Positions 29,218 to 60,000 of a stretch of DNA of 60,000 nt are shown one piece after another. How positions within the stretch are numbered: position 1 is the stretch's first letter; every line of letters begins with the position of its first letter. The DNA is taken from NCBI GenBank assembly GCA_051294905.1, contig CM119372.1, forward strand, positions 33,730,001-33,790,000. Reading direction: 5' to 3'. The translations under genes and the position numbers were made by a program. A model generated the notes under the pieces. The model was not told where the DNA came from. It worked only from the letters and a program-made list of their open reading frames with translations, and did no database searches. Origin of the DNA: Botryllus schlosseri. Lineage: Eukaryota.

Positions 29218-29893
29218 CTGAAAATATATATCTGTAAGTAAATGTTACGATCACCAAACCACTATGCCTGGAATGAAATACTGATAACGATGCTATCACA
29301 TTCGGTTCATGTAACTTAAATAATTCATTCGGAGGTATGACCGGAGAATTGTACAGTTCATAGGATTGGCCAAAGAAGTCAGCTTCTATACTCAAGTGGA
29401 AGTTGCAGTAACGCAGTAGAATTTTACTCAATAAAAGTGGAAAGTAGAAAGTAGAAATTTTGAAGGTACCGCTGCACTACTCAAATAGGAAGTAGAAATT
29501 AATCGAAAGTCTGAAAGCATTCAAGCACGTAATTCAATAATTTAGATTAGGTGAACGGGTCGCATATATGCGATTCCTTTCGAAACTGCAGGATGCATCA
29601 TCGCGACTAACGCGAATAAATTACGGCACCAGATATAGTCAGACTATCACCCAGTAACAATATGATTTGGGGATGAAAACATCGTGCAAATGCATTCAAA
29701 GGCGAAGATGACACTCCTGGTTAGCAAAGGCGTATGACAGCCGGCATACTGACAGACGAATTGACAGCCTTGATTTAATGCTCACGAACCGGGTTTAACA
29801 CACGGTTTTTTTCAATAACTTTCAAATCAGTCACGAAATAGACCGGCAGTATGATGTATCTATGTTTATGCGGATACCAACCATTTCTCTTAC

Positions 29894-30622: not shown

Positions 30623-30716
30623 CTGAATGTATAATGGTGTCATATAAAATCTACTGTTCCGGAAGTGCGCGAAGTCATCAGTTCTCGACCGCACTCCGGT
30701 AGTCGGTCGTCACAAG

Positions 30717-30912: not shown

Positions 30913-31845
30913 GTCACAAGTTTATCTCACTCTTACAGTTTTGACTCGGTCAAGTCTATTCATTTTCAATTCACCACCAAGTCAAGTCCGAGTCCAAGTC
31001 AGTGGGTAGAGGGCCGGGTCCAAGGCATATTTTTGTGACTCGAGTTCGAGTCCACGACATTATGTTCACTGTTCAGTTTTGAGCTCAATTCGGTTCAACG
31101 CACATTTTTCAACTCTGCACGACTGATATAGAATGCCTCGCATTCATAATATCGTAATATTCCTCAGTCCTAACAGTTTCTGGCCATATATTTTACAAGT
31201 TTTACGTGCTCAGGACTTATAGACGAAATACTTATAATGTGGTGACTTTACTATTCGAAGTTACAATGAAATGTCTTGGCCGTAGTAGTCTCGAGTCATA
31301 TGACTTGGTTATAGTCATGCACAATATCTCGAGTATAAGTCGAGTCAATACACAAATTGACTTTAGCGGAGTAGGGATTTAATACTGAAATGAATGCAAT
31401 ATTTGAAGGCAATGGGGACAATTATTATCACCTCTGCCACTACGCTACTCACAAGCATGTTTACAGATGTATGCATCACGAATATATACAATTAACTAGG
31501 ATTACCATGCGTACTCTTTCAAGAGGATTTGTCCTCCTTTTTGACTTTTTGAAAGTGTCCTCAAAGGACGCACAAATGTCCTCTATTTTGAGATTTAGTC
31601 CTCTTTTTTGAGAACTTTTAATAAATATAGGTCAAAATTCGATTGAGATACAGTAAATCAGCACTGATGTAACGCTCCGGCGGCTATTGCGGGAGCTGAG
31701 CCGGAAATATGACTTTTTTATATTCTTGGTCAACCAACTGATAACGCGAAAGAAAAACTGTATTTTGGGAGCTGAGCAAGAAAGTTAATATGGTATATAT
31801 GGTAACCGTACAATTAACACTACATCGTACAAAGAACGCGCTTAC

Positions 31846-32421
31846 CTCTATTTTATCGAAGCCCCTGAAGGCCTCTTCGTGAATATACGCGATTCGGTTA
31901 GACCGGAGGTTCAAAACCCGCAAGTTAATCAATCCGCCCTCGGACATCGTCTTTTCGGCGGCACATTTCTTAAGCTTTTCAAGTTTCCCCATACTCCGTA
32001 ACCCAGACTTTCCGTCACTGCCTGATTTATGGGACGATCCGTTTTGAGATGCAGGCTCGCAGTTCGGGTCCAGGTGCGTTTTCAGCGAGAAATAATTTTT
32101 CTTGACGGCTCCCAGTCTGTTGTCGGACAAATCTAGAATCTGCAGAGCTACCATTGTTCCGAAACCATGATCCTGAACGTCTTCGATTTCGTTGTGGCTG
32201 AAGTTAGCATCGGTGGCGTATTCCAATCGCTTTGTCATGTTTCGAGTGATGCGCTTTAATTTAGTGCCGGTCACATCTACGGCGCGTAACGTTGCGGGAA
32301 GAGTCGGTGCGGATTGGAACGGGTTGCGGGACAATTTCAAATGTGCGACGCTGGAGAGATCGCAAAACGCGTCCGCGCTGATGTTGGCCACTTTCGAGTG
32401 GGTGATGTCGAGGTGTTTGAG
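31846..32421 (-). CDS. LRR protein exon
   Basis: LKHLDITHSKVANISADAF...LRVLNLRSNRIAYIHEEAFRGFDKIE; TTCGCAG acceptor and GTAAGC donor; 192 codons; joins the next exon as FDKIE|ILDLGEN. Confidence 0.92.
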
Positions 32422-33811
32422 CTGCGAATGGAATTGAGAACAACTTCACATTATAAGTCTACAGATTAAAAAGAACAGAGGCGGTCACAGTAGTATGCGT
32501 AGTCACTGAGGTAAAAGGAGGGCCTGTGACCGAGCTAGCACAGCATTTTATACTACATTAGGCCTCGAAAAGCAATAAACCTTCGAAATAGAGGTTACGG
32601 TGTAAATTTTAGGCAATTATGAGTAGAAGTAACTATTCCCAAGGCATGTCTAAACTATTTCATGAAAATCAGTTTGATGAGATAGTTAGATATCGGTCAA
32701 TCCGCAACTACATCTGCTTCCGCTAGAGGTGGTCTAAAGCAGTTATTGGTGTATTTCAAGCGCAAGTAGATGCGAAGACGAAAAATACTACTCTCAATTA
32801 CAGGAAGAAAGAGCTCTTTACAAAGCATGTTACTTAAATTTGAGTGTAAAACCAGGGTTTTATATATCACTGGTAAAACGAAAGGTCTGAGGAGCCTGGA
32901 TTGTCTATTCACACTATGACAGATATCGTTAATTTGGGGTAGAACGTTCATTGCTAAACTTTCGATAGTAGATTATTACGTGACAGCAGCTTATGCCTAA
33001 CTATACGGAATCGGGTATTTCCAGTAATCTTATATGAATTAGAAGAAAAGGTACTTCGTTCTAAGTCTGAGCGTGGAGTTGACCCGGCATATCACTGCAC
33101 AAACTCCGAGATTTGCATCAGCTTTTGGGTTCTCGGGCGGCAGCCAGCGGGAATGAAACAACAGTCCTCTGGTTCGCGAGACTCGAGGGCTACTGCGGCT
33201 TTCTGGTGTGATACAAGAGTGTAGAAATCACCAATAGCCATTTCAGACCCTAAACTACTGGGTATGTTTCATCAAGTGGAGATGACTGAGGATTACCTGA
33301 GAATTACATACACAGAACATCTGTGATTAAATGACGTACTTTGGCTATTATTTAAATCCAGAGCAATCTGATTCTCAAGCGAATGCGGAACATATTTCGT
33401 CATATCATAATTCCTCAAAATACATGGTAGAATTTATATCAGAATTCTACCAAGTACATCTACGGAGAGATATTTGACGCTGCTCATGTTTACGTATCGT
33501 AGTGCACGAAAATGAAAAGTCAGTCACGGGGTAACTCCGCAAATCATTTAGGTAGAAATCCGTCTCTATCTCATTATCTACTTGCCGAAAAGATCGTAAT
33601 TAATATCCGCCGCAGAATTATGGCGGCGACGCACTACCTACGTCCGCTCGTATATAATAGCACGTTAATTCGATTAGTGTCAAACGGCAATTTACTTACT
33701 GAAAGGGTGAAAGCTCCCCATGAACTGAGTAAACCCACTAAAATCCTATATCGTTGAAGACTTCTATAAATAAGAATTCGCTACCTCAAATCACAACAGA
33801 TCAGGATACAT

Positions 33812-38000: not shown

Positions 38001-40014
38001 CTTGCGTCTTTTTCCTTGGGGGAAGAGTAGCCTACCCAATAATCATAACAGTAGTTATATAGATCGCTGGTGACCTGGCAGGGGTTCTTATGGGTGCGGC
38101 GGTGAGGTGCCTGAAAACTCGTGGTGGTGATGGCACCCTTTTACACCCCCTCTCGGCGGTGAGGTGCCATGTGCTCTTATGGATGCGGTGATGATGGCAC
38201 CCTTTCGGGTATAGGCTGCGGCGGTGATGTGCCTGAAAACTCGTGGTCGTGACTCGCCTTTTTTGCTATGGGCTGCGGCGGTGATGCGCCATGTATTCTT
38301 ACGCGATATGTGGTGACTCGCCATGTGTTCTTATGGGTGCGGTTGTGATGCGCACTTTCAACCATCTCTCGCGTGGTGTTGAATAGTCACCAACAATAAC
38401 CGCACAAACGGAAACGTGGCTTGCAAGAGGATTAAGCAGTGCGACCTATATTTCGAATGACCTGCGCGCTAAATTGTTTCACAGCCAACCGCGGTGGTCG
38501 TGACTCGCCTTTTTTACTATAGGTGGTGACGGTGATTCGCCTGTCGTGTATTCTTACCAGACATGGGGTAATCGCGATTAGTAATCGTAATCGATTACGA
38601 CGATTACAGTATTTTGAAGTAATCGTAATCGCAATCGATTACATTCGAAAAAAATCCGAAGTAATCGTAATCGTAATCGACTACTTCCCATATCTAATCG
38701 ATTTTTTTGTGAAAGAACAAGAATGAGATAATATACCACGTTAGCGATAGCATAAACGTCTGTTTTCAAACGCCACTGACTCATTATTACGTCAAAAGTA
38801 TTAGCTCCGCTCGTGATTGCGTAACAAGTATCCACACTTAGTAAACAGACATGCGATGGACATTGTAGTGTGATTGTAAGAACACCTCTCGTGGTGCATA
38901 TCAGGTTATCAATACACTACAGAAGCCGCTACCTCGCAGCAAGATATTGATCACCACTCTGCCTATAGATTCAAATAGTAACTTATGTATTAATGTTTGG
39001 TTGTGCTTAGTTAAACGCAGTTTACCATTGCTGCTTGGCGAGCAGCAGGCCTACGTACGCACGACGCACGTGCACCTGACGAAGATTCGGAATTTTGTAC
39101 TCGTCGAATAAGACATTGCAGTTTCCACAACGAAGCATTACAAATAAACAGCTGCTGATATATATCATAACCGAGCCGTGCTTAGCCGTTTCTCGTAACA
39201 GCAGCTCACTGTATATGTATTAAGTTGAAGGCAGAACTTTTATGTTAACTATATCTTATTCTCATATAACTACTTGAAACGGGCGTCAATCGTTATTTCA
39301 CAGTTCGTTACTTAGCATTTGGACCAGCCGCCATAACCATCCGCTTATATAGCCTGACATGTTAGCGTGGGTTGTAGCTAGAATCAGCAATTCAGCCAAA
39401 ACAGCAATTCCCCTGTCCAACCGTTCGTCAATTTTCAAAACTGAATTTCGTCAATAATATTGGTAATTGCATTATATTACTATTCATTTATAACCTCTCT
39501 GAGCCCCGAGTGTCAGATTTACCTGCAAAGCTGGGGCACGTAATTCATATTCATAGCATCTGGTATGTTGTTATAATTACTGTATGTTGTTAATTCGCGA
39601 CCTCCAGTCCGTTGTATAATCACAAGATATTGTACTCGCCCAAACGTAGCAGACTAAAAGAATATCTTTTGTGAGACGCACACACAAACTGTCATGGCTT
39701 TATTCCTTTGTGGATGCGCCGGGTGACATTTGCATTGTGGGCTCAGATTGGAAGGACAGGACTTATTAATCACGCCCACTCAGCGCGGCTATTGACAATG
39801 GACGAATTCCCTAAGTTTCGGCCAAGGTATTTCTTTGGTATCACATCCCGTGGAGTTGCGTGTTGGCCGAAACTGCATATGTCTTTTGGTGTGTTGTGGG
39901 ATCGTGACGCGGTAATGACCGGCTCCGAAATGCCTGTTCCCGTAAAATATAGCCTATGTATGTTTTTTCTTGAGGGGAAGAGGTATGCATTTCAAACCCA
40001 GCTATCTACTGGAT

Positions 40015-40952
40015 CAGGGGTCACCAACTGTTTCGAAACAAAAAGCTACTTCTTGTGTAGTGTGTACTGATTATTGCGACGACCGACGGGTTACCACGTA
40101 CTGCCGTCGTTTATCCATGTTCAGTTGGATTTCTTCACTTAGAGTAAGACAATCGGAGCACTGGGCCGGGTTTCCGCCCCTTACCAAGAAAAAAGAACGC
40201 TCACTCGCAGGGACTCACACCAGCTCCTCCAAGCTCAGTTGCGTTGCTGCAGTGCGTGCAGAAGCGCCAATCTCCGCGTCTAGACTCGGGAATATTAACT
40301 ATAGATTCCCGTCGAGCCGCCGCGTGGGCGAAGGCAAGCAATGCCCCGAGCGACTGCGTTCGTATGTTCCTTGGCGTCGGCCGACCCATGTTCAACTGCT
40401 GCTCATACGAAACGAGCTTCAACTTTCAAATCTCTCATTTGGATATTTGCTACAGCGCAGTTGTGGCCATACGAACGGGTAGGGGGGGGGGGCTGGGCGA
40501 GACTTACCGGGGGCCCCCTATAAGTATCTATCCGTAACTTATGGGGGGCTTCGCTCCCAGACCCCTCTTTCGCATCTGTTATTATTATCTATCTATCAAG
40601 GTTTGGCCAGGTGCTGGATTCGGCCAGGTCTATTTTTGCATGTGTGCAAGGATAGACTACATCAAAACTAAGTTAATCTACCGCATGCAGAGACGTGATG
40701 ATTATCGGGATACGGGACTTTTCTAACAAATGCAGAGATTTGATGATGATTGACACATCTGTACGGAATCCTATTCTTGATTTACACGGATTTCCATGTT
40801 TATTCGTTATTATCCTTGAAAAAAGCGCATAATCTAAATAGGGGAGCCCTTCGACCAGCCCCCCCTGGCGACCGCCCACCTCGCCCACCCCAAAAGCCAC
40901 CACTACTACAGCGACCGCGGGCGACTCATTTGGTCCGCGTTGATGACCCCTG
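40015..40952. mobile_element. hAT-type MITE carrying rRNA-derived cargo
   Basis: CAGGGGTCACCAAC...GTTGATGACCCCTG, degenerate TSD TACTGGAT/TACTAGAG. Confidence 0.7.
40100..40453 (-). pseudogene. Degenerate 28S rRNA fragments
   Basis: Colinear resemblance to conserved antisense 28S motifs: ATTTCTTCACTT..GAGCACTGGGC; AAGAAAA.AGAAC; GACCCATGTTCAACTGCTG; TTTG.ATATTTGCTAC. Confidence 0.8.
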
Positions 40953-43900
40953 TACTAGAGCCATTTGAATCGCGAAGCTCGAAAAACATTTTCAAGAATT
41001 AATTAAATTCTCGAAAATACTCTATAACATATGTTGGTTTACGAAATACTTTTGAGTCCCCTTCGAGCACGCTCCCCACTCTATTAAAGAATTTGGGGTG
41101 CGGCAGGTAAAGACCTGGCAATAATGCAAATCGTTGGATGCGATAAATCATCCACTATAAAGTTGGGCAATTGATATATTATGACGTAATAAGCAAATGA
41201 CGCATGATGTATGAAGAAAGTTGATATCTCATTAAGCCTTTTCGTCGCAATCCTTGTATTGTCTTCCCATATATCATTTAAGATTATAGTCCTAAGCAAA
41301 ACAAATGTAATCGTGAGTAATCGTGATTACTTTTTCAATGTAATCGTAATCGTAATCGACTACTGCCTGATTTTGCTGTAATCGTAATCGTAATCGTAAT
41401 CGCGTGATTCCGAAGTAATCGTAATCGCAATCGATTACATTCATAAAGTAATCACCCCATGTCTGATTCTTACGGGGTCTGTGGCGACTCGCCATGTGTT
41501 CTTATGGGTGCGGTCGCATGCGGCTATTGCGTCTTATGGCGGGGGGTGGTGAGCGGCTATTGATGCTAACACGAAACCCGGGGTGGCGAGCGGCACTTAT
41601 TTCTTATGGCGGCGGGTCTTATTTCTTATGGGTGCGGTCGTGATTCGTACTTTCGGTATAGACTGCGGGCGGCATGTCGTACTTTCAGCAAAAAAAGGTG
41701 TGAAATAGTTTGCCAAGTCTAGGAATCACTTGCAAGGTAATATTTTGGTATTTAGTTTACCACAGAGCCGGCGTAGACGGCGATTCGAATATCAACAATA
41801 ACAACGCTCACGAATTAACACTTCAAATAGCTGTGAAATAGTTTGCAAAACCCCGCGATCGCTGACAAGATAATGTCTCGGTCATAACCATCTTTCACGA
41901 CTTGGTGTCCTAACCATACCGATCGCTCACGCGGTGAAATTTTAGTAATCAGTTTGTCACAGTACTTGATATCGCTGGTAAGATTTAACAAGTAACGAAT
42001 AACAGACCGCGGTAACTTGAATAGCGACAAATTGTCACTTATTTCCGCTCTAACTCTAATCCTTTGTGAAGTGAACGCTTATTCAAAAGGGTGTGATATA
42101 ATTTTAAAATCCAACGACCACTCACCGGATAATACTTCAGACATAGCAATTCCGCATACCCGCCTACAAGGTAATATTTCGGTAATTAGTTTGTCACAGA
42201 ACCGTCGCAGGCGGTGATTGGAAAACCGACAATTTGTCACTCGCCCGCGATCGCTATATGTTTCACGCCTCCAGAATAGTGGCTGACTTTAGTTGCGTGA
42301 TAAGATCCATGAAAATATTCAATCAATGTGTTAGTTTATCAACTTGAAATGAAACTCACTACACAAATCAAGTCGATTCGTATCTGAATGTTTTAAATCG
42401 GTACAACTCTAATCCTTTGACAAATCCCTTACCGCGTTTTTGTTGAATCGAACGTAACCCGAATATTACTGACGCCGACTTTCAGCCGCATCGAATTATT
42501 CGCACATTCCGCGCCACTGTTTTCACACTTATAGAATCAATACCAACTATAACTCTACAAGAATCAAGAATCACAAGTATGTGCATTACACAGTTATTGT
42601 CTTTATTAACTTGAAATCAAACACTTAACAAAAACACACAACTAATCATTTGGCAACTCTAGCATTACCAAAAAATTCCAGTATTGTTGATTGAAAATCC
42701 TTGAGTCATTATTATCAAAAATGTTATAGTACCGCATCGGAATCCATTTCGCGGGATGTACTAAAGGTAAATCCAGATAATCCAAAATGAAATATTTGGA
42801 CTTTGACATAGTCTGAATTGAAATATATTGACAAACATGACTACCAACTTTGATCCAGTCACATTTCAAGATCATACTTTGAAACAATCCTTGAAACTTA
42901 CAACTTTATTCACGACTAAGTTTTCCGTTTATCAAATAGAGTTTCAGTAAATACTATCGCGATATTTTAATGTGTTACTACACACAATAGAATCAATCAA
43001 TGTTGTTGTAAATATTTCTAACTTGACAACCACTTGTGCATACCGCGATCGACTTGCGACGCGATGAGTTAAATCGGAATATTTCAATCTATTTGTCGAA
43101 ACCTTGAACAAACTATCAGGTTATTTTTTGTTGTAATCGAGTGAACGGAAATAGTATTACGTCTCAACATTTTAGCATCTTCCCATAAACAAAGAGTAAA
43201 ATACAAAAAACCTTGTCAAGTCAATCCGTTTGTAACTTACCCAACCAAAGCAAAAACTATCCTTATGAAAAGTAGACAAGACTACGCCAGTAATTACTAC
43301 AATCCAAAATCCATAACAAGCTCGGTTGTATTCATATCCCTACGACGCGTCTTTTGTTTTTCAACTGTAAAAGTCGTTACTATTTTGCAAGACAAAGTAA
43401 TTACTACTTGATATATTTTATAAACCAAAGTAAATACTACTCGGTGTGTGGTTTGAGATTAACATATTACATTTGAGTATACCGGATTTGAATGCCTGAC
43501 CAACGTAGTTGAGAATTCATTTCTTACAATCAAACGCCGGTTTTACATTGAAAGGTATCATACTGTAAACATAAGGATTGACACATTGATTTGATATATG
43601 AGATTTTGTAATGCTCGACCACGACTTGATTATTAAATTATTCACGATAATTAGACCCGATGTTGTGGTAAAGGTTATTAGAAAATATCACTTTTGGCAT
43701 CGAGTACCAGTCGAAGTGGGTGAACAATAACACCGAAAATGATAAATGCGTTTCGTGCTACTATTGATACAAGTTCATTTCTATCAGGTGAAATAAACGC
43801 CATCACAAAACTCAGAGCATGCAAAGGTCTTGATTGATATGAATTTCGATTTGTGTCTTATGATTTTAGAAATATTATGATTCGTTAAACCAAAGTCGTA

Positions 43901-45639
43901 TGTCCGATTATTAATTGATTGGAAACTTGATCACGTACCTCGATCATTACAGAAGATTATAACCCCATTGTCCGACAATCTTTTACAAAAGGATCGAAAC
44001 CAAGTAACCCAAAGTCGTTGCCGTCGCATAAACAATTTGTACGACGTTTGATAATTGTACCCTATACGTTGGTGTACTAGAGATATTTGTAAAACACACT
44101 CTGGTAAAGAAATCGAAAAGATATCCTACACCTAAATCTGATAAAACCATTTTGCACTTTTTGTTCGTCAGTAGTATCCATTTTAATTTTCCCATTTCCT
44201 CTCGTCAAAGTAGATGTAATCATAGTCACTAAAGAACTTACTTGGATGTGTTTGAATTCTAGACATAGTTATGATTTACTCAACGCAAGACCCAAGAACA
44301 ACCGTAGTTAACAACCGTGCACACATATCCAAAATATCGCACACTCCGCTATTCCTAAAGTACAAACACCCGATACAAAATATCACTTGTTGCGGCATCA
44401 TCTTCACAATATCACCATTCTGTTTGTGTCAATTAGTTACTTTGTATGTTATCCCACAACTCTTACAAAAGTACGAAGGATATTAACATCGCACTAAGTA
44501 ATTACCTTTACTCGATATTCTCACATTACGAAACTAAAGAATGGTTGGTTAGACTCTACAAACTGTTTCGATATCACAAGACCTTTATTGTCTGAATGGG
44601 TGTTCATGTATCTTAATAATCAAATAGTTCAACACAGAACTAGTACTAACAGAAACATCAGAGTTGTTTACACAAAAGTTTGTATGTGTACAGTATGCGA
44701 ATACCATGTGTAAGTCCAGCGCAATTGCAGTATCCATTCGAGTTCAGTCAACACAAATTTATTACAACGGAGCCACGTAAACTTTCGTGAAAGAAAAGCA
44801 TACTCACTTCCAGAGGGTTATGTCAACACCATAGCAGTTCCCCAACAACAAAGTACATATGTTTCTAGCCACGGTCCTTACATCTTTCACATAGATCAAT
44901 CTACTTTGCTAACGAAAAGTGCTGAGTCATCACATGATCGCTCTCACAACAAAACAGCTAGTAGATATTATCATTCAAAATATTCCTAACCCTTTACACA
45001 CCAGTGACAAATCATACAACGAATATGCTTTGCGGGTCGAATTGTTGTTCAGTGTCAAGTCTACCTGTTGAAACGTACATTAAACAGCGCAATCCAATTA
45101 AAACCACGAATCTATTTTCATTTCGTCACATACAGAAAAATAAATTTTCTTTCTCCAACACATACTTGTAACCAATCGCTTTCATTAAACACACAACACC
45201 ATAAAAGTATTTACTTTCTACAACATAGACATTCCGATGTAGTCAAGAAATATTTTTATTAATCAAAATCATCGATTTCTGTTCACGGCGTTAGTGTGTG
45301 CATGTCATACCTGTGGGCCTCGTATTAAAATGGACACGACACGACTGAATGTAAGGGGGCAGAAGTCTATCACATCGATTTACATGTAGTCTTCGCCACG
45401 GTTTCAAAAAACGAATCATCTCTTTTGCATTGATCTAGACCGAGCAAGTTAGTTAATGGCCATGATTGTGTTTGTCATATGCGAATGATAGGGTTACTGT
45501 CAAATCTACATACAACAATCTTCTGACGATCATAATAGCAATTTCATTTTCCACCCCTTCATAATTGTACAACTCGGTAACTACGTTTAACAAGACCAAT
45601 CACACTACCGGCGTTGAACACAAGATACCTACCCAAGTA

Positions 45640-46480
45640 AAAATATCATTCTGGTTTGGACAACTGACGTTTACCTGTGTAAAATTATCATTTTCACTTG
45701 GAGGTCCACCGTTACCTAACTAAAATACCATTGTCCTTTGGAGATTTATCGTTTACCCAGTGTAACAATCCCCTTTTCACTTGGAAATCTATTTTTGGCC
45801 TGAATAACAAACCCCTTTTCACTTGGAAATCTATTTTTGCCCTGGATAACAAACCTTTTTCATTTGGAAATATATTTTTTCTCTTGGTAACAAACCTTTT
45901 TCACTTGGAAATATATTTTTTCTCTTGGTAATAAACCTTTTTCACTTGGAAATATATTTTTTCTCTGAGTAACAAACCTTTTTCACTTGGAAATATATTT
46001 TTTCTCTTGGTAATAAACCTTTTTCACTTGGAAATATATTTTTTCTCTGAGTAACAAACCTTTTTCACTTGGGAATATATTTTTTCTCTGGTTAACAAAC
46101 CTTTTTCACTTGGAAATCTATTTTTTCTCTGGGTAACAAACCTTTTTCACTTGGAAATATATTTTTTCTCTGGTTAACAAACCTTTTTCGCTTGGAAATA
46201 TATTTTTTCCTTGAGCAACAGACCATTTTTACTTGGAAATATATTTTTTCCTTGAGCAACAGACCATTTTCACTTGGAAATATATTTTTTCCCTGAGCAA
46301 CAAACCATTTCACTCGGCGGGTCGTCGTTTACCTGAGTAAAATATCATTTTTCTTTGGAGATCTGGCGTTTACCCATTGTAACAATACATTTTCACTTGG
46401 AAATCTGTCGTTTACCTGAGTACCAATACCGTTTTCACTTGGAAATCTGTCTTTTCCCTGGGTAACAATACCCTTTTCGT
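45640..46480 (+). repeat. 41-bp minisatellite in the left arm
   Basis: TCACTTGGAAATATATTTTTTCTCTTGGTAATAAACCTTTT units at 45901, 45942, 45983 and onward; degenerate toward the edges. Confidence 0.92.
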
Positions 46481-47855
46481 TTTGAAAACTGACAACCACA
46501 CCGGTCAATTTGATATTTTTTGTATATTGTTACAACAGACAGCGACAAAATATACACCAACAACGACTCCGATACATTTGTCTAATCAAATATTCACTTG
46601 CTCTGATGCATCCCATCAAAATCATTGGTTACTCACATACAATAACAATGTGCTGTTGTACATCGACATGTATGTTTTCGGAATTGGTGAATAAAGGCGT
46701 TTCCGATATGTCCGGGTTTGTGCTTTGGATTTTCCAGAGTCAAAATGTCTGAATAAAACACCTCCTCGACTTTGGTAACTGGTTGATACACGGATAATGG
46801 TGTTCGGAAAACGGATGAATTTATGTTCCCCATCGCGCTGACAACATCGGGTTACTTGTGAGTTTCCTCGGGTCTGTTTACTATATTGTGTCTTTACTGG
46901 TCAATACATGTCGCTCCAGTCAGCTGAAACCGGATCACCAATATGAGAAAGTGTGGGGGGCCGGATCCGGATATTCACTCATGACCCAACGACCGATATT
47001 CAAGTAAACATGTTACAGACCGTGTTTTGTCTCCATGAAAAATACCAATGCATACACCATCACATCAAGTACGTCACGATTGTTCACAAGTATTCGCGTA
47101 AACCAGGTGTACATACAATGTGTCGGTGTACAAACATCACGGAAAACAAATTCATGTTGTCAAGTCTCATCATGCGACGACTCTGTACATTCAATGTGGG
47201 CATAGATGACTTGGGGACAGGCAAGCAACCATATTTGGACGTAACATGGTCTTAGTATGAACCAACCTCCACCCAACTTGTGAAAAATCAATCTCACACG
47301 AGTACAACCCTTTCACGGGTTCACACCTTGATTTTGCAAGATTGTTCGGATTCTCAGGTAGACTTGCATCGTGATCAAGACCTCAATATAATCGTGTTGC
47401 GTAACTCACTCAATCCCTGCGCATTGTTGGTCATAACCTGCTAACTTTTTCGCCGAGACCGCAGTGTTTCACCCGACATAATGTATTTGGCGATCACCAT
47501 CGTTATCAATCTTTCACGCGATGAATATGTCAGATGTCGCTACTCCCACATAACGACTACAGATAAACATCGTGAGCAGTGACTCCGCATTGAAATCGTA
47601 AACATGGACTCTGTGTGTGTGTGTGTGAATCTCGAGTTCGATTACGATTTGATAATGTAATCCAAGGTGAATCTCTGCGAGTCGAAGACTGATTTCGTGG
47701 TAATCACGCCACAAGAGGGCGCTGTCTCGTAATTCTACAGGTCAACATAAACCGCGGTTGGAAACTTTTGGTCTAGTTGATCCAGCTACGTATTGAAACG
47801 GTGTACCCACACAGACCACTGAGAAAACGTTGTCGTTACCTGACTATATCCACGA

Positions 47856-48137
47856 GTGAATATGGGACTACGCGTAACGTTCCATAGATTCCTCTGGCCC
47901 CACACCGTGGTTTTACGACACAGACAAGATGCAGCGGTGGAAATATTGAAAATGAAAAACGATACCTTGGTGACATTTGATTTGGATTTTACACCTGATG
48001 AACCATACACTCGATTGGTACATTGGGATGACAACTCTATCATCGAGGTCAAGGGAAAAGAAATGTACAGATTTGTTGGTGTTGTGGATATTCAGCGAAA
48101 ATCAGGGTATATGGTTGTGTATGGTTCGCATATTTGA
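47856..48137 (+). CDS. Hypothetical ~91-93 aa ORF in the unique central spacer
   Basis: Uninterrupted ORF with globular-looking composition; no recognisable family. Confidence 0.3.
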   Translation: MNMGLRVTFHRFLWPHTVVLRHRQDAAVEILKMKNDTLVTFDLDFTPDEPYTRLVHWDDNSIIEVKGKEMYRFVGVVDIQRKSGYMVVYGSHI

Positions 48138-48918
48138 CTGAGAATATATCGGTATGCATAATGCACTATCCATTGTATCATATCGTGTGTCATCTATGCC
48201 CACATTGAATGTACAGAGTCGTCGCATGATGAGACTTGAGAACATGAATTTGTTTTCCGTGATGTTTGTACACCGACACATTGTATGTACACCTGGTTTA
48301 CGCGAATACTTGTGAACAATCGTGACGTACTTGATGTGATGGTGTATGCATTGGTATTTTTCATGGAGACAAAACACGGTCTGTAACATGTTTACTTGAA
48401 TATCGGTCGTTGGGTCATGAGTGAATATCCGGATCCGGCCCCCCACACTTTCTCATATTGGTGATCCGGTTTCAGCTGACTGGAGCGACATGTATTGACC
48501 AGTAAAGACACAATATAGTAAACAGACCCGAGGAAACTCACAAGTAACCCGATGTTGTCAGCGCGATGGGGAACATAAATTCATCCGTTTTCCGAACACC
48601 ATTATCCGTGTATCAACCAGTTACCAAAGTCGAGGAGGTGTTTTATTCAGACATTTTGACTCTGGAAAATCCAAAGCACAAACCCGGACATATCGGAAAC
48701 GCCTTTATTCACCAATTCCGAAAACATACATGTCGATGTACAACAGCACATTGTTATTGTATGTGAGTAACCAATGATTTTGATGGGATGCATCAGAGCA
48801 AGTGAATATTTGATTAGACAAATGTATCGGAGTCGTTGTTGGTGTATATTTTGTCGCTGTCTGTTGTAACAATATACAAAAAATATCAAATTGACCGGTG
48901 TGGTTGTCAGTTTTCAAA

Positions 48919-49759
48919 ACGAAAAGGGTATTGTTACCCAGGGAAAAGACAGATTTCCAAGTGAAAACGGTATTGGTACTCAGGTAAACGACAGATTTCC
49001 AAGTGAAAATGTATTGTTACAATGGGTAAACGCCAGATCTCCAAAGAAAAATGATATTTTACTCAGGTAAACGACGACCCGCCGAGTGAAATGGTTTGTT
49101 GCTCAGGGAAAAAATATATTTCCAAGTGAAAATGGTCTGTTGCTCAAGGAAAAAATATATTTCCAAGTAAAAATGGTCTGTTGCTCAAGGAAAAAATATA
49201 TTTCCAAGCGAAAAAGGTTTGTTAACCAGAGAAAAAATATATTTCCAAGTGAAAAAGGTTTGTTACCCAGAGAAAAAATAGATTTCCAAGTGAAAAAGGT
49301 TTGTTAACCAGAGAAAAAATATATTCCCAAGTGAAAAAGGTTTGTTACTCAGAGAAAAAATATATTTCCAAGTGAAAAAGGTTTATTACCAAGAGAAAAA
49401 ATATATTTCCAAGTGAAAAAGGTTTGTTACTCAGAGAAAAAATATATTTCCAAGTGAAAAAGGTTTATTACCAAGAGAAAAAATATATTTCCAAGTGAAA
49501 AAGGTTTGTTACCAAGAGAAAAAATATATTTCCAAATGAAAAAGGTTTGTTATCCAGGGCAAAAATAGATTTCCAAGTGAAAAGGGGTTTGTTATTCAGG
49601 CCAAAAATAGATTTCCAAGTGAAAAGGGGATTGTTACACTGGGTAAACGATAAATCTCCAAAGGACAATGGTATTTTAGTTAGGTAACGGTGGACCTCCA
49701 AGTGAAAATGATAATTTTACACAGGTAAACGTCAGTTGTCCAAACCAGAATGATATTTT
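48919..49759 (-). repeat. 41-bp minisatellite, mirror copy in the right arm
   Basis: Reverse complement of 45640-46480. Confidence 0.92.
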
Positions 49760-52700
49760 TACTTGGGTAGGTATCTTGTGTTCAACGCCGGTAGTGTGAT
49801 TGGTCTTGTTAAACGTAGTTACCGAGTTGTACAATTATGAAGGGGTGGAAAATGAAATTGCTATTATGATCGTCAGAAGATTGTTGTATGTAGATTTGAC
49901 AGTAACCCTATCATTCGCATATGACAAACACAATCATGGCCATTAACTAACTTGCTCGGTCTAGATCAATGCAAAAGAGATGATTCGTTTTTTGAAACCG
50001 TGGCGAAGACTACATGTAAATCGATGTGATAGACTTCTGCCCCCTTACATTCAGTCGTGTCGTGTCCATTTTAATACGAGGCCCACAGGTATGACATGCA
50101 CACACTAACGCCGTGAACAGAAATCGATGATTTTGATTAATAAAAATATTTCTTGACTACATCGGAATGTCTATGTTGTAGAAAGTAAATACTTTTATGG
50201 TGTTGTGTGTTTAATGAAAGCGATTGGTTACAAGTATGTGTTGGAGAAAGAAAATTTATTTTTCTGTATGTGACGAAATGAAAATAGATTCGTGGTTTTA
50301 ATTGGATTGCGCTGTTTAATGTACGTTTCAACAGGTAGACTTGACACTGAACAACAATTCGACCCGCAAAGCATATTCGTTGTATGATTTGTCACTGGTG
50401 TGTAAAGGGTTAGGAATATTTTGAATGATAATATCTACTAGCTGTTTTGTTGTGAGAGCGATCATGTGATGACTCAGCACTTTTCGTTAGCAAAGTAGAT
50501 TGATCTATGTGAAAGATGTAAGGACCGTGGCTAGAAACATATGTACTTTGTTGTTGGGGAACTGCTATGGTGTTGACATAACCCTCTGGAAGTGAGTATG
50601 CTTTTCTTTCACGAAAGTTTACGTGGCTCCGTTGTAATAAATTTGTGTTGACTGAACTCGAATGGATACTGCAATTGCGCTGGACTTACACATGGTGTTC
50701 GCATACTGTACACATACAAACTTTTGTGTAAACAACTCTGATGTTTCTGTTAGTACTAGTTCTGTGTTGAACTATTTGATTATTAAGATACATGAACACC
50801 CATTCAGACAATAAAGGTCTTGTGATATCGAAACAGTTTGTAGAGTCTAACCAACCATTCTTTAGTTTCGTAATGTGAGAATATCGAGTAAAGGTAATTA
50901 CTTAGTGCGATGTTAATATCCTTCGTACTTTTGTAAGAGTTGTGGGATAACATACAAAGTAACTAATTGACACAAACAGAATGGTGATATTGTGAAGATG
51001 ATGCCGCAACAAGTGATATTTTGTATCGGGTGTTTGTACTTTAGGAATAGCGGAGTGTGCGATATTTTGGATATGTGTGCACGGTTGTTAACTACGGTTG
51101 TTCTTGGGTCTTGCGTTGAGTAAATCATAACTATGTCTAGAATTCAAACACATCCAAGTAAGTTCTTTAGTGACTATGATTACATCTACTTTGACGAGAG
51201 GAAATGGGAAAATTAAAATGGATACTACTGACGAACAAAAAGTGCAAAATGGTTTTATCAGATTTAGGTGTAGGATATCTTTTCGATTTCTTTACCAGAG
51301 TGTGTTTTACAAATATCTCTAGTACACCAACGTATAGGGTACAATTATCAAACGTCGTACAAATTGTTTATGCGACGGCAACGACTTTGGGTTACTTGGT
51401 TTCGATCCTTTTGTAAAAGATTGTCGGACAATGGGGTTATAATCTTCTGTAATGATCGAGGTACGTGATCAAGTTTCCAATCAATTAATAATCGGACATA
51501 CGACTTTGGTTTAACGAATCATAATATTTCTAAAATCATAAGACACAAATCGAAATTCATATCAATCAAGACCTTTGCATGCTCTGAGTTTTGTGATGGC
51601 GTTTATTTCACCTGATAGAAATGAACTTGTATCAATAGTAGCACGAAACGCATTTATCATTTTCGGTGTTATTGTTCACCCACTTCGACTGGTACTCGAT
51701 GCCAAAAGTGATATTTTCTAATAACCTTTACCACAACATCGGGTCTAATTATCGTGAATAATTTAATAATCAAGTCGTGGTCGAGCATTACAAAATCTCA
51801 TATATCAAATCAATGTGTCAATCCTTATGTTTACAGTATGATACCTTTCAATGTAAAACCGGCGTTTGATTGTAAGAAATGAATTCTCAACTACGTTGGT
51901 CAGGCATTCAAATCCGGTATACTCAAATGTAATATGTTAATCTCAAACCACACACCGAGTAGTATTTACTTTGGTTTATAAAATATATCAAGTAGTAATT
52001 ACTTTGTCTTGCAAAATAGTAACGACTTTTACAGTTGAAAAACAAAAGACGCGTCGTAGGGATATGAATACAACCGAGCTTGTTATGGATTTTGGATTGT
52101 AGTAATTACTGGCGTAGTCTTGTCTACTTTTCATAAGGATAGTTTTTGCTTTGGTTGGGTAAGTTACAAACGGATTGACTTGACAAGGTTTTTTGTATTT
52201 TACTCTTTGTTTATGGGAAGATGCTAAAATGTTGAGACGTAATACTATTTCCGTTCACTCGATTACAACAAAAAATAACCTGATAGTTTGTTCAAGGTTT
52301 CGACAAATAGATTGAAATATTCCGATTTAACTCATCGCGTCGCAAGTCGATCGCGGTATGCACAAGTGGTTGTCAAGTTAGAAATATTTACAACAACATT
52401 GATTGATTCTATTGTGTGTAGTAACACATTAAAATATCGCGATAGTATTTACTGAAACTCTATTTGATAAACGGAAAACTTAGTCGTGAATAAAGTTGTA
52501 AGTTTCAAGGATTGTTTCAAAGTATGATCTTGAAATGTGACTGGATCAAAGTTGGTAGTCATGTTTGTCAATATATTTCAATTCAGACTATGTCAAAGTC
52601 CAAATATTTCATTTTGGATTATCTGGATTTACCTTTAGTACATCCCGCGAAATGGATTCCGATGCGGTACTATAACATTTTTGATAATAATGACTCAAGG

Positions 52701-54954
52701 ATTTTCAATCAACAATACTGGAATTTTTTGGTAATGCTAGAGTTGCCAAATGATTAGTTGTGTGTTTTTGTTAAGTGTTTGATTTCAAGTTAATAAAGAC
52801 AATAACTGTGTAATGCACATACTTGTGATTCTTGATTCTTGTAGAGTTATAGTTGGTATTGATTCTATAAGTGTGAAAACAGTGGCGCGGAATGTGCGAA
52901 TAATTCGATGCGGCTGAAAGTCGGCGTCAGTAATATTCGGGTTACGTTCGATTCAACAAAAACGCGGTAAGGGATTTGTCAAAGGATTAGAGTTGTACCG
53001 ATTTAAAACATTCAGATACGAATCGACTTGATTTGTGTAGTGAGTTTCATTTCAAGTTGATAAACTAACACATTGATTGAATATTTTCATGGATCTTATC
53101 ACGCAACTAAAGTCAGCCACTATTCTGGAGGCGTGAAACATATAGCGATCGCGGGCGAGTGACAAATTGTCGGTTTTCCAATCACCGCCTGCGACGGTTC
53201 TGTGACAAACTAATTACCGAAATATTACCTTGTAGGCGGGTATGCGGAATTGCTATGTCTGAAGTATTATCCGGTGAGTGGTCGTTGGATTTTAAAATTA
53301 TATCACACCCTTTTGAATAAGCGTTCACTTCACAAAGGATTAGAGTTAGAGCGGAAATAAGTGACAATTTGTCGCTATTCAAGTTACCGCGGTCTGTTAT
53401 TCGTTACTTGTTAAATCTTACCAGCGATATCAAGTACTGTGACAAACTGATTACTAAAATTTCACCGCGTGAGCGATCGGTATGGTTAGGACACCAAGTC
53501 GTGAAAGATGGTTATGACCGAGACATTATCTTGTCAGCGATCGCGGGGTTTTGCAAACTATTTCACAGCTATTTGAAGTGTTAATTCGTGAGCGTTGTTA
53601 TTGTTGATATTCGAATCGCCGTCTACGCCGGCTCTGTGGTAAACTAAATACCAAAATATTACCTTGCAAGTGATTCCTAGACTTGGCAAACTATTTCACA
53701 CCTTTTTTTGCTGAAAGTACGACATGCCGCCCGCAGTCTATACCGAAAGTACGAATCACGACCGCACCCATAAGAAATAAGACCCGCCGCCATAAGAAAT
53801 AAGTGCCGCTCGCCACCCCGGGTTTCGTGTTAGCATCAATAGCCGCTCACCACCCCCCGCCATAAGACGCAATAGCCGCATGCGACCGCACCCATAAGAA
53901 CACATGGCGAGTCGCCACAGACCCCGTAAGAATACACGACAGGCGAATCACCGTCACCACCTATAGTAAAAAAGGCGAGTCACGACCACCGCGGTTGGCT
54001 GTGAAACAATTTAGCGCGCAGGTCATTCGAAATATAGGTCGCACTGCTTAATCCTCTTGCAAGCCACGTTTCCGTTTGTGCGGTTATTGTTGGTGACTAT
54101 TCAACACCACGCGAGAGATGGTTGAAAGTGCGCATCACAACCGCACCCATAAGAACACATGGCGAGTCACCACATATCGCGTAAGAATACATGGCGCATC
54201 ACCGCCGCAGCCCATAGCAAAAAAGGCGAGTCACGACCACGAGTTTTCAGGCACATCACCGCCGCAGCCTATACCCGAAAGGGTGCCATCATCACCGCAT
54301 CCATAAGAGCACATGGCACCTCACCGCCGAGAGGGGGTGTAAAAGGGTGCCATCACCACCACGAGTTTTCAGGCACCTCACCGCCGCACCCATAAGAACC
54401 CCTGCCAGGTCACCAGCGATCTATATAACTACTCATAACATTTTGTAAGTTGAAATCGCGCCCAGCGCGAAATTTTTTGGAAAAGTTGCATACAGTTTCA
54501 AAAAAACTCTATAATCTATGCTAATTCACGAAAAAATTTGGGGCCCCCTTCGAGCTCGCCCCCCCCCCAATTGTGGGGTTTGGGGTGCGGCAGTTACGGC
54601 CCTGCATACGATATTAGGCTAGCGTTCTTGCATTATTGCTAATAGGATTGGACTCATTTTTGTACAGCAGGCATATGTTTTTTAAAATGTTTTATGTGAT
54701 TTGTTCTTGCTTTGATGCATATTTTACGCTGTGCACACTGTGTATACAGTATACATTCTGCTTGGATGATTACTGCTGATTATCCATGTCTTTTATCTTT
54801 TGTAATTCCTATGTCCATTGGTTAACTGTCACATTCGTTAGTCTTGATATAGGCCTACCTACATCTTGCCATATTTACTCGTTTATAACTACCAGACTTG
54901 GACAACTAGATAATTCTAGTTGACTAAATTCACTAAATTAGAGCGAAATGCCAG

Positions 54955-58409: not shown

Positions 58410-58646
58410 CTTATATCAACTAAACTATGTGACGGCTCAACCACATCAGCCTTTTGAAACTACAAATTCGACTGCATTCAGATATTCATTTTGTACTTCC
58501 ATTAGCAGTAGTTTTGAAATGTCTTCGAAACCGTTACTTCTGCTTGTAATTTTGTAAAAACGTACGGCAATACTTCTCCCCGTACTTTGGTACCAACAAC
58601 GACTGCTTTCACCACCTCCTCTGTTCCTAACTAATTGTCTGCTTAC

Positions 58647-59044
58647 CTTAGTCAGGTTGCGGAACAAGTCTGAACTAAGCGTCGACAGCCTGGTTTTCGC
58701 CAACGACAGAAATACCAAAGACGCGGGGAAGGCGCTAAGATTTTCGTGGATCACCATCCGCCTATTATACGAAAGGTCGACTTCCGTCAACCTGGGTGTG
58801 TAGAACTTCGGCCGCGATCCGTTCGCTCCAACAGGGACGAACAGGGGAGTTGCGTTCAGCCAGCAATTTCTCATGCTTAGTGTGCGCAGATTTTTCATGT
58901 GTCGGAAACTGTCCACGGGTAAGGTCTTGCAAAACGTCCGAGATAAGTCAAGATGACGCAGCGAGGTGAAATCGTCAAACACGGCGGGTTCGAAGGTGAC
59001 AAACGACGATGCGAGGTTGTCGCTGAGATAGAGAGCCTTCATTT
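58647..59044 (-). CDS. LRR protein exon (most 5' exon found in the window)
   Basis: LYLSDN, LRHLDLSRT, LRTLSMRNC, LTEVDLSYN, LVFLSLAKT repeats; TTTCAG acceptor and GTAAGC donor; splices in frame across 26 kb as LFRNLTK|LKHLDITHS. Confidence 0.9.
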
Positions 59045-60000
59045 CTGAAATGCAATGGGTAATTGACTACACAACAAACATGCACATTATTACAGAATTT
59101 CATTTGTGAATGGTCCGCGGCATATATACGCGATGCGCGTGGGCAACTGCCACATAAAATAGTAACTAGTGAGCGACATTTGAGCAAACGGGACTACTTT
59201 GGCGTCATATAAGCCTAATTCCTTTCCAAAGACCTCGATATCAGATTAAGAACGACAGTATCACCAGTCACCACACAACAATAATAATAATCATTTTATT
59301 TAATTGTCTAATCGTCATTCTGAGTGTCAGTGGCGGCTCGTCCTATAGGACAACTGGGGCATTTCCCCACCTAAAATTCTATTCAATAAGAATTATTTAC
59401 CATTTATAGACGCTCAGCAATCAATATATACCGAGATCACAGCGAAACCCGCATTCTTCTTTTGCTTTCGCTTGTAAATGCCCAATGCCCATACATAGCG
59501 AAGTCTCAGCGAAAATCGAATCTTCTTCTGTGTTTTCGCTTTGTGAATGCCTAGCCGGGGCCTGCCCCTGTATAGCGCTCATAACACGCTTTCCCTATCT
59601 ATTCCCTCAAAGCCGCGCATAACAAAGAAACGGTGATCTGGTCTCTCCCATTCACAAAATTACCGAGCAAGTGGGGCGAGATGTGATGTAACAATCGTAT
59701 CTATATCTGAACTCGATTACCATAATATGCACTGAGTCGACCTTTGCTGGTATAGGTCGATTTTGACGGTGTTTCGCACCATGATAATTCTTGAAACTTG
59801 GTATGTTATGTCGCGGAGGTAGTATTTAACACTGCTCCAAGTTTCAGGCTTGCTACTAAAAGATTAGGTTGTAATTTCGTTTCCGAAGTTCAGTGTGTGC
59901 TGATACATCATATACAGTAAACAGAATTTACTCAAAAGCCGTTATTGGTCTCCATTGATTTTCACGATGTTCCATACCGAGATCGGTCATGACATTTGGC

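What the first reader, a model, noticed from the sequence alone, without database searches (positions are those of the whole stretch)
38050..54433. Giant-palindrome, gene-less Polinton/Maverick-type element (6.2-kb arms, 1-kb loop)
Seen: AGTAGT termini, a perfect 6-bp TSD CATAAC, and two 6,245-bp inverted arms around a 978-bp spacer (47211-48188), so about 93% of the 13.5-kb core is self-complementary. No long ORFs. Known: AG-rich simple termini with 6-bp TSDs are hallmarks of Polintons/Mavericks (protein-primed PolB, rve integrase, capsid genes), whose TIRs are usually at most about 1 kb. I recall palindromic non-autonomous Polintons being described in fish, so the class may have precedent, but I do not recognise this family. 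Inference: a fold-back/copy-back defective replicon or satellite. It keeps the replication and integration ends and a near-full Polinton length (perhaps a packaging constraint) and is mobilised in trans by a helper Polinton.
Basis: partly seen in the sequence, partly recalled or inferred. Interest (0 to 1): 0.9.

Follow-up and report, generated by a model that had tools for sequence, protein, structure and literature searches.

The report
Palindromic hitch-hiker of Maverick virus-like transposons
A 13.5-kb mobile element built of two mirror-image 6.2-kb halves borrows the ends of virus-like Maverick/Polinton transposons living in the same animal genome, exists in hundreds of copies whose halves always stay identical, and carries one small conserved gene of its own in its short middle piece.

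Summary
AGTAGT...ACTACT ends, a perfect 6-bp duplication (CATAAC) and two 6,245-nt inverted arms with 2 mismatches surround a 978-bp loop. The left arm is split by a nested 2,908-bp hAT-like insertion.

It is a non-autonomous Polinton/Maverick derivative.
- Ten other copies were fetched, and all 11 have AGTAGT ends and perfect 6-bp duplications.
- Seven are giant palindromes, one is a 3.5-kb deletion form, and two are 17-21-kb gene-bearing elements.
- The gene-bearing elements share the terminal ~450 bp at 88% identity. They encode a protein-primed polymerase, an rve+chromo integrase, an A32-like ATPase and a probable capsid protein.
- A 26-nt loop motif occurs 649 times in the genome.

It is not gene-less. 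The loop holds a 91-aa ORF that is open in 148 of 150 scored copies, with dN/dS 0.24-0.31 between lineages. Its function is unknown.

Copies differ at 609-1,330 arm sites, and both arms carry each change; only 2-21 sites are private to one arm. The arms are therefore reset to identity every propagation cycle. I infer snap-back or one-arm templating during helper-driven replication.

The scan found this family before on other DNA of this genome. I found no published description.

The parts
38044..38049 (.). Left copy of the 6-bp target-site duplication CATAAC
   Evidence: Read directly. It matches 54434-54439.
38050..38557 (+). Outer part of the left arm. It holds the AGTAGT terminus and subterminal repeats, and is the stretch shared with gene-bearing Polintons.
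   Evidence: 0 mismatches of 508 to the reverse complement of 53926-54433. The terminal ~448 nt are 88% identical to both ends of the gene-bearing C14 copy.
38558..41465 (.). Nested, later insertion of a 2,908-bp hAT-like non-autonomous transposon. It is not part of the palindromic element.
   Evidence: Termini CAGACATGGGG...CCCCATGTCTG and an 8-bp duplication ATTCTTAC at 38550-38557 and 41466-41473. It is absent from the right arm. Its ORFs of 118 and 165 aa have no Pfam match.
41466..47210 (+). Inner part of the left arm. It is non-coding, AT-rich and strongly C-over-G skewed.
   Evidence: 5,745 nt with 2 mismatches to the right arm. GC 34-37% and GC skew down to -0.21. No helper-protein homology. 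The 81-aa ORF at the arm/loop border is not conserved.
45656..46478 (.). 41-bp tandem array inside the left arm. Its mirror lies at 48921-49743.
   Evidence: Tandem Repeats Finder gave period 41 and about 20 copies. The repeat finder families D1 and D2.
47211..48188 (+). Unique 978-bp spacer, the loop of the foldback
   Evidence: It lies between the arms. It is homologous in other palindromic copies: 95-98% in C6 and C12, about 76% over its conserved part in others. It is absent from the gene-bearing copies.
47535..47575 (+). Conserved ~41-nt loop motif, about 330 bp upstream of the ORF. Function unknown; a candidate cis element.
   Evidence: It is the second conservation peak of the 7-copy spacer alignment. 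It occurs once in the window's spacer and in loci of 6 of the 7 fetched palindromic copies, and in none of the helper loci. Its 26-nt core has 649 genome matches at up to 2 mismatches, against 0 for the reversed control.
47862..48137 (+). Conserved 91-aa ORF of the loop (stop codon included). An orphan protein.
   Evidence: 150 matches scored of 1,202 candidates. All are at least 90% identical and 148 of 150 have no stop. Identity between deep lineages is 59-65% with the same length. dN/dS is 0.24-0.31, and differences by codon position are 28/14/35. No Pfam, Atlas or usable fold match.
48189..54433 (-). Uninterrupted right arm of 6,245 nt, ending in ACTACT
54434..54439 (.). Right copy of the 6-bp target-site duplication CATAAC
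   Evidence: Read directly.

Best explanation
This is one copy of a very abundant family of non-autonomous derivatives ('satellites') of the genome's own Polinton/Maverick virus-like elements. About 650 loop motifs occur in the genome.

The element keeps only the helper's cis-acting ends: the (AGT)2 terminus and about 450 bp of subterminal repeats. It is inserted by the helper's rve-type integrase, which makes the 6-bp duplication. This step is inferred from the shared ends and the duplications.

Between the ends it carries two identical 6.2-kb non-coding arms. A 1-kb loop between them holds a conserved 41-nt motif and a 91-aa gene of the satellite's own.

The two arms are made identical anew in every round of propagation. 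I propose that the element is copied by the helper's protein-primed, strand-displacing polymerase. The displaced single strand snaps back into a 6.2-kb hairpin. Then either differences between the paired arms are repaired in that hairpin, or one arm serves as template for both (copy-back). A change, including indels of 90-300 bp, is therefore either lost or copied into both arms. This step is inferred and no intermediate was seen.

After insertion the arms simply drift apart slowly. The role of the 91-aa protein is unknown. My guess is a factor that favours the satellite's own replication or packaging over the helper's.
For: Ends:
- All 11 copies examined (window plus 10) start AGTAGT, end ACTACT and have a perfect 6-bp duplication, with ten different hexamers (AATGGG occurs twice).
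- The end motif and the duplication length match those given for vertebrate Mavericks in passages of PMC8097293.

Helper:
- Two fetched copies with the same ends carry ORFs. The terminal 448 nt are 88% identical to the window's.
- Those ORFs include an rve+chromo integrase (E 2e-16) and an A32-like ATPase.
- A 1,222-aa ORF has 69 relatives, E down to 1.6e-167. 15 of the 69 carry PF03175, and two are named DNA-directed DNA polymerase.
- A 432-aa ORF scores 0.98 against DJR-like capsid clusters, in which 14-30% of members carry PF21738.
- 73 of 113 scored integrase matches are at least 95% identical, full length and without a stop.

Dependence:
- tblastn with the 12 helper ORFs finds nothing significant in the window element.
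- Two palindromic copies carry short helper-ORF remnants mirrored in both arms: 114 aa at 91-92% identity and 31 aa at 84%.

Family:
- 7 of 8 paired loci tested are giant palindromes, with homologous arms and loops.
- The loop motif has 649 genome matches against 0 for the control.

Arm reset:
- In five four-arm alignments, 609-1,330 sites differ between copies with both arms agreeing. Only 2-21 sites per copy are private to one arm.
- 24 lineage-specific indels of 89-294 nt (besides one alignment-edge block) are mirrored in both arms at 99.3-100% identity.
- Arm-to-arm mismatches are 2-23 per roughly 6.4-6.9 kb. The 23 in the most diverged copy are spread along the arm.
- Zero mismatches in 66 paired duplication sites argues that the copies are young, and that the 10-25% divergence between copies arose before insertion (my inference).
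- Nested insertions sit in one arm only in three copies.

Gene: as given under parts.
Against: - No extrachromosomal, hairpin or protein-linked form was observed. Replication by the helper polymerase is inferred, not shown.
- Replication of a hairpin alone does not homogenise the arms. The model needs an added repair or template-switch step.
- Gene conversion between the arms in the chromosome is not excluded by my data.
- The arms share nothing with the helper beyond the ends, so their origin is unknown.
- A 3.5-kb non-palindromic derivative also inserted with a 6-bp duplication. Neither the palindrome nor near-helper length is therefore required for integration.
- The 91-aa protein has no recognisable fold or family, and RNA support is thin.
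- Only 10 other copies of the family (649 loop-motif matches) were read in full.
Confidence: 0.6

Rival explanations
1. Same non-autonomous Polinton derivative, but the arms are kept identical by gene conversion between the two arms at each chromosomal locus. This is how large palindromes of sex chromosomes and the inverted repeats of plastid genomes stay identical (established knowledge, recalled). The element moves by ordinary integrase-mediated transposition without any snap-back stage.
For: Arm identity is 99.7-99.97% in every copy. Closely spaced inverted repeats are known substrates for intramolecular conversion. The lock-step pattern is what conversion predicts as well.
Against: - If copies had diverged in place by 10-25%, their 6-bp duplications should have decayed. 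None of 66 paired sites differs.
- The 23 arm differences of the most diverged copy are spread along the arm rather than confined to tracts.
- Nested insertions of 1-4.7 kb persist in one arm while the flanks stay identical. Conversion might simply fail on large heterologies, so this point is weak.
Confidence: 0.2
2. An unrelated foldback (FB-type) transposon family with its own, unidentified transposase. It only resembles Polintons at its tips or captured their ends once.
For: Most of the element is inverted repeat and it contains tandem sub-repeats, the hallmark architecture of foldback elements. There are no Polinton genes inside.
Against: - About 450 nt of terminal sequence is 88% identical to gene-bearing Polintons of the same genome.
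- The end motif and the 6-bp duplication are identical in both kinds.
- Helper-ORF remnants occur in some palindromic copies.
- No transposase-like ORF occurs in any of the 7 palindromic copies read.
- Drosophila FB elements make 9-bp duplications (recalled).
Confidence: 0.05
3. The palindromes act chiefly as hairpin-RNA genes. Read-through transcription of the arms would give long double-stranded RNA, and small RNAs from it would silence Polintons or the family itself. They would then be tolerated or even useful to the host. This does not exclude the best explanation.
For: A 6.2-kb perfect inverted repeat with a 1-kb loop would fold into a hairpin if transcribed (inference). RNA reads lie on the arms in both directions at low depth.
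Against: - Depth is very low, and 85 of 88 bulk RNA reads fit only partly.
- Only the non-coding terminal ~450 nt is shared with helpers, so small RNAs would not hit helper genes.
- No small-RNA data were available.
- This reading does not explain the conserved ORF.
Confidence: 0.1
4. Assembly artefact: a false inverted duplication made by the assembler or by chimeric long reads.
For: Perfect long palindromes are a known artefact class (recalled). No read spanning the locus was available to me.
Against: - A transposon insertion with its own 8-bp duplication lies in one arm only.
- A clean 6-bp duplication flanks the whole element.
- Seven other loci have the same architecture with different sequences, different flanks and homologous loops.
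Confidence: 0.01

Closest known systems
Polinton/Maverick virus-like elements (autonomous), as described for vertebrates in PMC8097293 (passages read)
   Same: (AGT)2 end motif, 6-bp target-site duplication, terminal inverted repeats, and co-residence with copies encoding pPolB, rve integrase, ATPase and a probable capsid protein. The terminal ~450 nt are 88% identical to those copies.
   Different: - None of the defining genes is present.
- The inverted repeats are 6.2 kb, against 46-1,447 bp (mean 402) in that paper.
- 93% of the element is palindrome.
- It has its own 91-aa gene, which is absent from the helpers.
- Length is about 13.1-14.7 kb, against 16.9 kb for the helper read here.
Foldback transposons (Drosophila FB and similar; recalled, and named in an earlier scan note)
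   Same: [quoted passage not shown] It is non-coding and abundant.
   Different: - The ends and the 6-bp duplication are those of Polintons.
- The arms are mostly unique sequence, not arrays.
- The element is several times larger.
- The dependence on a virus-like helper is identifiable.
Snap-back/copy-back defective genomes of viruses, and palindromic or hairpin deletion derivatives of protein-primed linear replicons (adenovirus incomplete particles, yeast killer-plasmid 'hairpin plasmids'; recalled, not found in the searchable library)
   Same: - A helper-dependent derivative that keeps one kind of replication end twice, in inverted orientation.
- Arms that are identical because of the way they are made.
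- The polymerase type (protein-primed, strand-displacing family B) is the one known to generate such forms.
   Different: - These are stable, germ-line-integrated, long-lived lineages with hundreds of copies.
- They have a non-palindromic 1-kb loop carrying a selected gene.
- No free form has been seen.
Non-autonomous DNA transposons in general (MITE-like derivatives mobilised in trans)
   Same: It keeps the cis ends, lacks the enzymes and outnumbers the helper clade read here.
   Different: It is not a deletion derivative of the helper: the interior is unrelated. It is nearly as long as the helper, is palindromic, and encodes a conserved protein.

Membership tests
Polinton/Maverick (autonomous element) | [quoted passage not shown] | tested here: not met
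   No ORF exceeds 165 aa. tblastn with the helper's 1,222-aa polymerase ORF finds nothing in 38050-54433.
Polinton/Maverick (autonomous element) | Encodes a retrovirus-like (rve) integrase | tested here: not met
   tblastn with the helper's integrase gives no hit in the element.
Polinton/Maverick (autonomous element) | 6-bp target-site duplication | tested here: met
   CATAAC on both sides. 11 of 11 family copies have perfect 6-bp duplications.
Polinton/Maverick (autonomous element) | Terminal inverted repeats ending in a short repeated motif, (AGT)2 or (AG)3 | tested here: met
   AGTAGT...ACTACT. The motif is as listed in PMC8097293. Repeat length is far outside the published range.
Non-autonomous derivative of a resident Polinton clade | Shares its termini with gene-bearing elements of the same genome | tested here: met
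   448 nt are 88% identical to both ends of the C14 copy. The C7 and C14 copies encode integrase, ATPase, polymerase and a probable capsid protein.
Non-autonomous derivative of a resident Polinton clade | Actually mobilised or replicated by the helper's proteins | not testable with these tools
   This needs a mobilisation assay or detection of intermediates.
Foldback (FB-type) transposons | Long inverted repeats making up most of the element, with internal tandem repeats | tested here: met
   92.7% of the core is inverted repeat. There are 41-bp arrays and subterminal repeats.
Foldback (FB-type) transposons | Target-site duplication of the FB family (9 bp in Drosophila; recalled) | tested here: not met
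   6 bp in 11 of 11 copies.
hAT superfamily (the nested insertion only) | 8-bp target-site duplication and short inverted termini of the CAG...CTG type (recalled consensus) | tested here: met
   ATTCTTAC is duplicated. The termini are CAGACATGGGG...CCCCATGTCTG.
hAT superfamily (the nested insertion only) | hAT transposase gene | tested here: not met
   The only ORFs, of 118 and 165 aa, have no Pfam match. At most it is a non-autonomous member.

The most novel reading that the evidence does not exclude
These palindromes are true satellites of a Polinton 'virus'. On this reading they are replicated by its protein-primed polymerase through a snap-back single-strand stage. They may be packaged in its capsids, which would explain why they stay near 80-87% of helper length despite heavy indel turnover. 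Their own 91-aa protein and loop motif would let them compete with or exploit the helper. Their lock-step arms would then be the first genomic read-out of how Polintons copy their DNA, something never shown experimentally.
Probability: 0.25. Interest if true: 0.85.

Novelty: new variant of a known kind. Interest (0 to 1): 0.65.

Why it matters
How Polintons/Mavericks replicate has only been inferred from their genes; nobody has seen it. This family records that process in three ways.
- Hundreds of helper-dependent palindromes have arms that are re-made identical at each generation.
- Mirrored indels show that whole stretches are copied from one arm to the other.
- A private, selected gene shows that the hitch-hiker is evolving as an entity of its own.

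This gives concrete, testable predictions: hairpin or protein-linked linear DNA, packaging, and interference with the helper. It also documents a parasite-of-a-parasite layer. If most of the 649 motif sites are full-length copies, the family makes up roughly 1-2% of a 495-Mb animal genome (my estimate). For genome assembly and annotation, it flags a class of 13-kb perfect palindromes that are real and not artefacts.

Tried and rejected
- **ORF as ATPase fragment.** BLASTP gave 27% identity over 79 aa between the 91-aa ORF and the helper's packaging ATPase, E 3e-5 for that single comparison. A profile-profile comparison, 6 sequences against 15, gave probability 0.83% and E 0.067. Rejected.
- **WD40 likeness of the ORF.** Two WD40-repeat proteins scored E 2e-5 and 2e-4 in the 1.84-billion-protein search, but only by adding five repeats. 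I treat this as chance or at most a lead.
- **Structure of the ORF.** Mean pLDDT was 37, so no fold search was run.
- **Family and feature searches for the ORF.** Pfam gave only a sub-threshold TriTu match at E 0.16. The Atlas gave no usable hit.
- **Relatives of the ORF.** 5 clusters of 90-93 aa, all on contigs of 0.7-1.1 kb without names. None in viral contigs: 55 pattern matches, 0 confirmed.
- **RNA runs.** No RNA holder is listed for the stretch.
- **RNA reads laid on 47211-54500.** In the bulk RNA run 88 reads lay on it, 85 of them only partly. Depth over the ORF was at most 1.4, and all those reads had the first mate on the minus strand. The single-cell run gave 217 reads, and the two contig runs may be DNA. 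This is too thin to call expression, splicing or small RNAs.
- **Other ORFs.** The 81/95-aa ORF across the arm/loop border is frameshifted in one copy and absent in diverged copies. tblastx of the arm against three diverged copies showed no coding-like conservation beyond repeats.
- **Other scans.** Rfam found nothing in the window. PHROGs and PDB sequence searches did not name the helper ORFs.
- **Literature.** Seven searches and passages of PMC6431247, PMC5499653, PMC8097293 and PMC11161782 gave no description of palindromic Polinton derivatives. Kapitonov and Jurka 2006 is not held. Repbase and Dfam are not available here, so a database entry may exist.


Full report
**Observation**

The element runs from 38050 (AGTAGT...) to 54433 (...ACTACT) and is flanked by CATAAC on both sides. 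The repeat finder reports two inverted pairs around a 978-nt spacer at 47211-48188: 41466-47210 with 48189-53933 (5,745 nt), and 38050-38557 with 53926-54433.

A script found 0 mismatches in the outer 508 nt and 2 in the inner 5,745 nt.

The two pieces of the left arm are separated by a 2,908-bp insertion at 38558-41465. It has CAGACATGGGG...CCCCATGTCTG termini and an 8-bp duplication ATTCTTAC. This is a later, nested hAT-like element that is absent from the right arm.

No ORF exceeds 165 aa. The arms are AT-rich with mirrored GC skew, about -0.2 on the left and +0.2 on the right. Each holds a 41-bp tandem array.

**The family**

The window lies in a 495.5-Mb assembly of 219 contigs. Host genes nearby are animal-type GPCR and LRR exons. 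An earlier scan note calls the organism a sea squirt; I did not check this.

The terminal 508 nt gave 66 matches, with 40 of 2,324 candidates scored. Most matches come in inverted pairs 12.8-20 kb apart.

I fetched ten other copies.
- Seven are giant palindromes. Their arms are 5.5-6.9 kb and carry 2-23 mismatches.
- One is a 3.5-kb form with ordinary ends and part of one arm.
- Two are gene-bearing elements, of 16.9 kb and about 20.9 kb. Lengths were computed by hand from coordinates.

All 11 copies begin AGTAGT, end ACTACT and have perfect 6-bp duplications, with ten different hexamers because AATGGG occurs twice. Arms and loops of the palindromic copies are homologous to the window's, from 97% identity down to about 72%.

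**The helpers**

- The gene-bearing copies share only the terminal ~450-650 nt with the palindromes, at 88% identity over 448 nt.
- They encode an rve integrase with a chromo domain and an A32-like ATPase.
- A 1,222-aa ORF has 69 relatives with E down to 1.6e-167. Fifteen of the 69 carry the protein-primed polymerase family PF03175, and two are named DNA-directed DNA polymerase.
- A 432-aa ORF resembles clusters with double-jelly-roll-like capsid domains, score 0.98. This is a lead-level tool.
- The integrase search scored 113 of 1,016 candidates. Of these, 73 are at least 95% identical, full length and free of stops. Further clades lie at about 67% and 53% identity.
- None of the 12 helper ORFs has a significant match in the window element.
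- Two palindromic copies keep short helper-ORF remnants, mirrored in both arms. This links the two kinds by descent or recombination.

The end motif and the 6-bp duplication match those described for vertebrate Mavericks. There the inverted repeats are 46-1,447 bp and elements average 16.9 kb (passages of PMC8097293).

**Not gene-less**

An earlier scan note on another copy mentioned a small conserved gene in the middle piece, and I tested that here.

- The ORF at 47862-48137 (+) encodes 91 aa.
- It gave 150 scored matches of 1,202 candidates. All are at least 90% identical, and 148 of 150 have no stop.
- In the diverged lineages it keeps its start, its length and 59-65% identity.
- Between the two deep lineages dN/dS is 0.24-0.31 in all nine comparisons. 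Differences fall 28/14/35 on codon positions 1, 2 and 3.
- It is absent from the helper loci and from the 3.5-kb form.
- It has no family, fold or named relative.
- A first hint of likeness to the helper ATPase failed a profile comparison.

A seven-copy spacer alignment shows a second conserved block, a ~41-nt motif at 47535-47575 about 330 bp upstream of the ORF. It occurs once in the window's spacer and in loci of 6 of the 7 fetched palindromic copies, and in no helper locus. Its 26-nt core occurs 649 times in the genome at up to 2 mismatches, 349 forward and 300 reverse, against 0 for the reversed control. The family therefore has on the order of 650 members.

**Lock-step arms**

- In five four-arm alignments, 609-1,330 sites distinguish two copies while both arms of each copy agree. 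Only 2-21 sites per copy are private to one arm.
- 24 lineage-specific indels of 89-294 nt (besides one alignment-edge block) are likewise present in both arms at 99.3-100% identity.
- The arms therefore do not evolve independently along the lineages.

Two observations argue that the reset happens during propagation and not in place.
- The duplications are perfect in 11 of 11 copies, 66 paired sites. The copies are therefore young, and their 10-25% mutual divergence predates insertion (inference).
- The 23 arm differences of the most diverged copy are scattered along the arm and do not lie in tracts.

Nested insertions persist in one arm in three copies. This evidence is suggestive, not decisive.

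**Mechanism**

Shown:
- Polinton ends and 6-bp duplications.
- Helpers with matching ends in the same genome.
- Absence of the enzymes in the element.
- A selected small gene in the loop.
- Concerted arms.

Inferred:
- Integration by the helper integrase.
- Copying by the helper's strand-displacing, protein-primed polymerase.
- A displaced strand that snaps back into a hairpin whose duplex end recreates an origin.
- Repair of arm differences in that hairpin, or copy-back from one arm.

Rivals: conversion in place (0.2), an unrelated foldback transposon (0.05), a hairpin-RNA role, which is not exclusive (0.1), and an assembly artefact (0.01).

**Comparison and novelty**

The element works like a non-autonomous transposon and like a snap-back defective genome. 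It fails membership as an autonomous Polinton, because polymerase and integrase were tested and are absent. It meets the test for a derivative that shares a resident Polinton's ends. It has foldback architecture but not the FB duplication length.

I found no published description in seven searches and four papers' passages. Repbase, Dfam and Kapitonov and Jurka 2006 could not be consulted.

The scan has met the same family on other DNA of this genome (notes e1-7786796, e1-7803791, e1-7786340). My tests agree with them on the palindrome, the small gene and the lock-step arms.

I rate it a new variant of a known kind, interest 0.65.

Noticed in passing
window 38558-41465: Nested 2,908-bp hAT-like non-autonomous element. 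It has an 8-bp duplication ATTCTTAC, CAGACATGGGG termini and many GTAATCG subterminal repeats, and lies in the left arm only. It gives a relative date: it inserted after the palindrome did.
   Followed up: partly
window 41466-47210 and 48189-53933: Strong mirrored strand asymmetry in the arms, with GC skew about -0.2 on the left and +0.2 on the right. The strand read inward from either terminus is C-rich. This is not what simple deamination of a displaced strand would predict, and it is unexplained.
   Followed up: no
L037 2118-2459 and L038 6112-6453; L039 1161-1253 and L040 6026-6118: Two palindromic copies carry remnants of ORFs from opposite ends of the helper, mirrored in both arms: 114 aa at 91-92% identity and 31 aa at 84%. 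This suggests repeated recombination or template switching between helper and satellite.
   Followed up: partly
L046 301-3798: A 3.5-kb non-palindromic relative. It has both ~440-nt ends plus the outer part of one arm, no loop and no 91-aa ORF, and has its own 6-bp duplication TACACC. The palindrome is therefore not needed for integration.
   Followed up: partly
L043 6227-6667 and L044 1316-1960; L041 2660-7310: In the C7 gene-bearing copy the two halves of the integrase match lie about 4.65 kb apart, so something is inserted in the gene. The left arm of the C6 palindromic copy has an insertion of about the same size. I did not check whether they are the same transposon.
   Followed up: no
genome places listed (e.g. 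pairs 7.5-11 kb apart on C13, C12, C11): Some 91-aa ORF copies lie in the same orientation less than one element length apart, which suggests nested or tandem palindromic copies.
   Followed up: no
window 23589-25301: AT-rich (29% GC) satellite array with a unit of about 80 bp and some 20 copies.
   Followed up: no
window 3009-3200 and 7829-8020: A 192-nt inverted repeat pair, 84% complementary and 4.6 kb apart. Probably the ends of another DNA transposon.
   Followed up: no
window 13189-13875 (-), 29834-30709 (-), 31687-32445 (-), 58449-59066 (-): Host coding pieces: a rhodopsin-family GPCR fragment and three leucine-rich-repeat exons or genes. The palindromic element lies between LRR-coding stretches, possibly in an intron or between paralogues.
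   Followed up: partly
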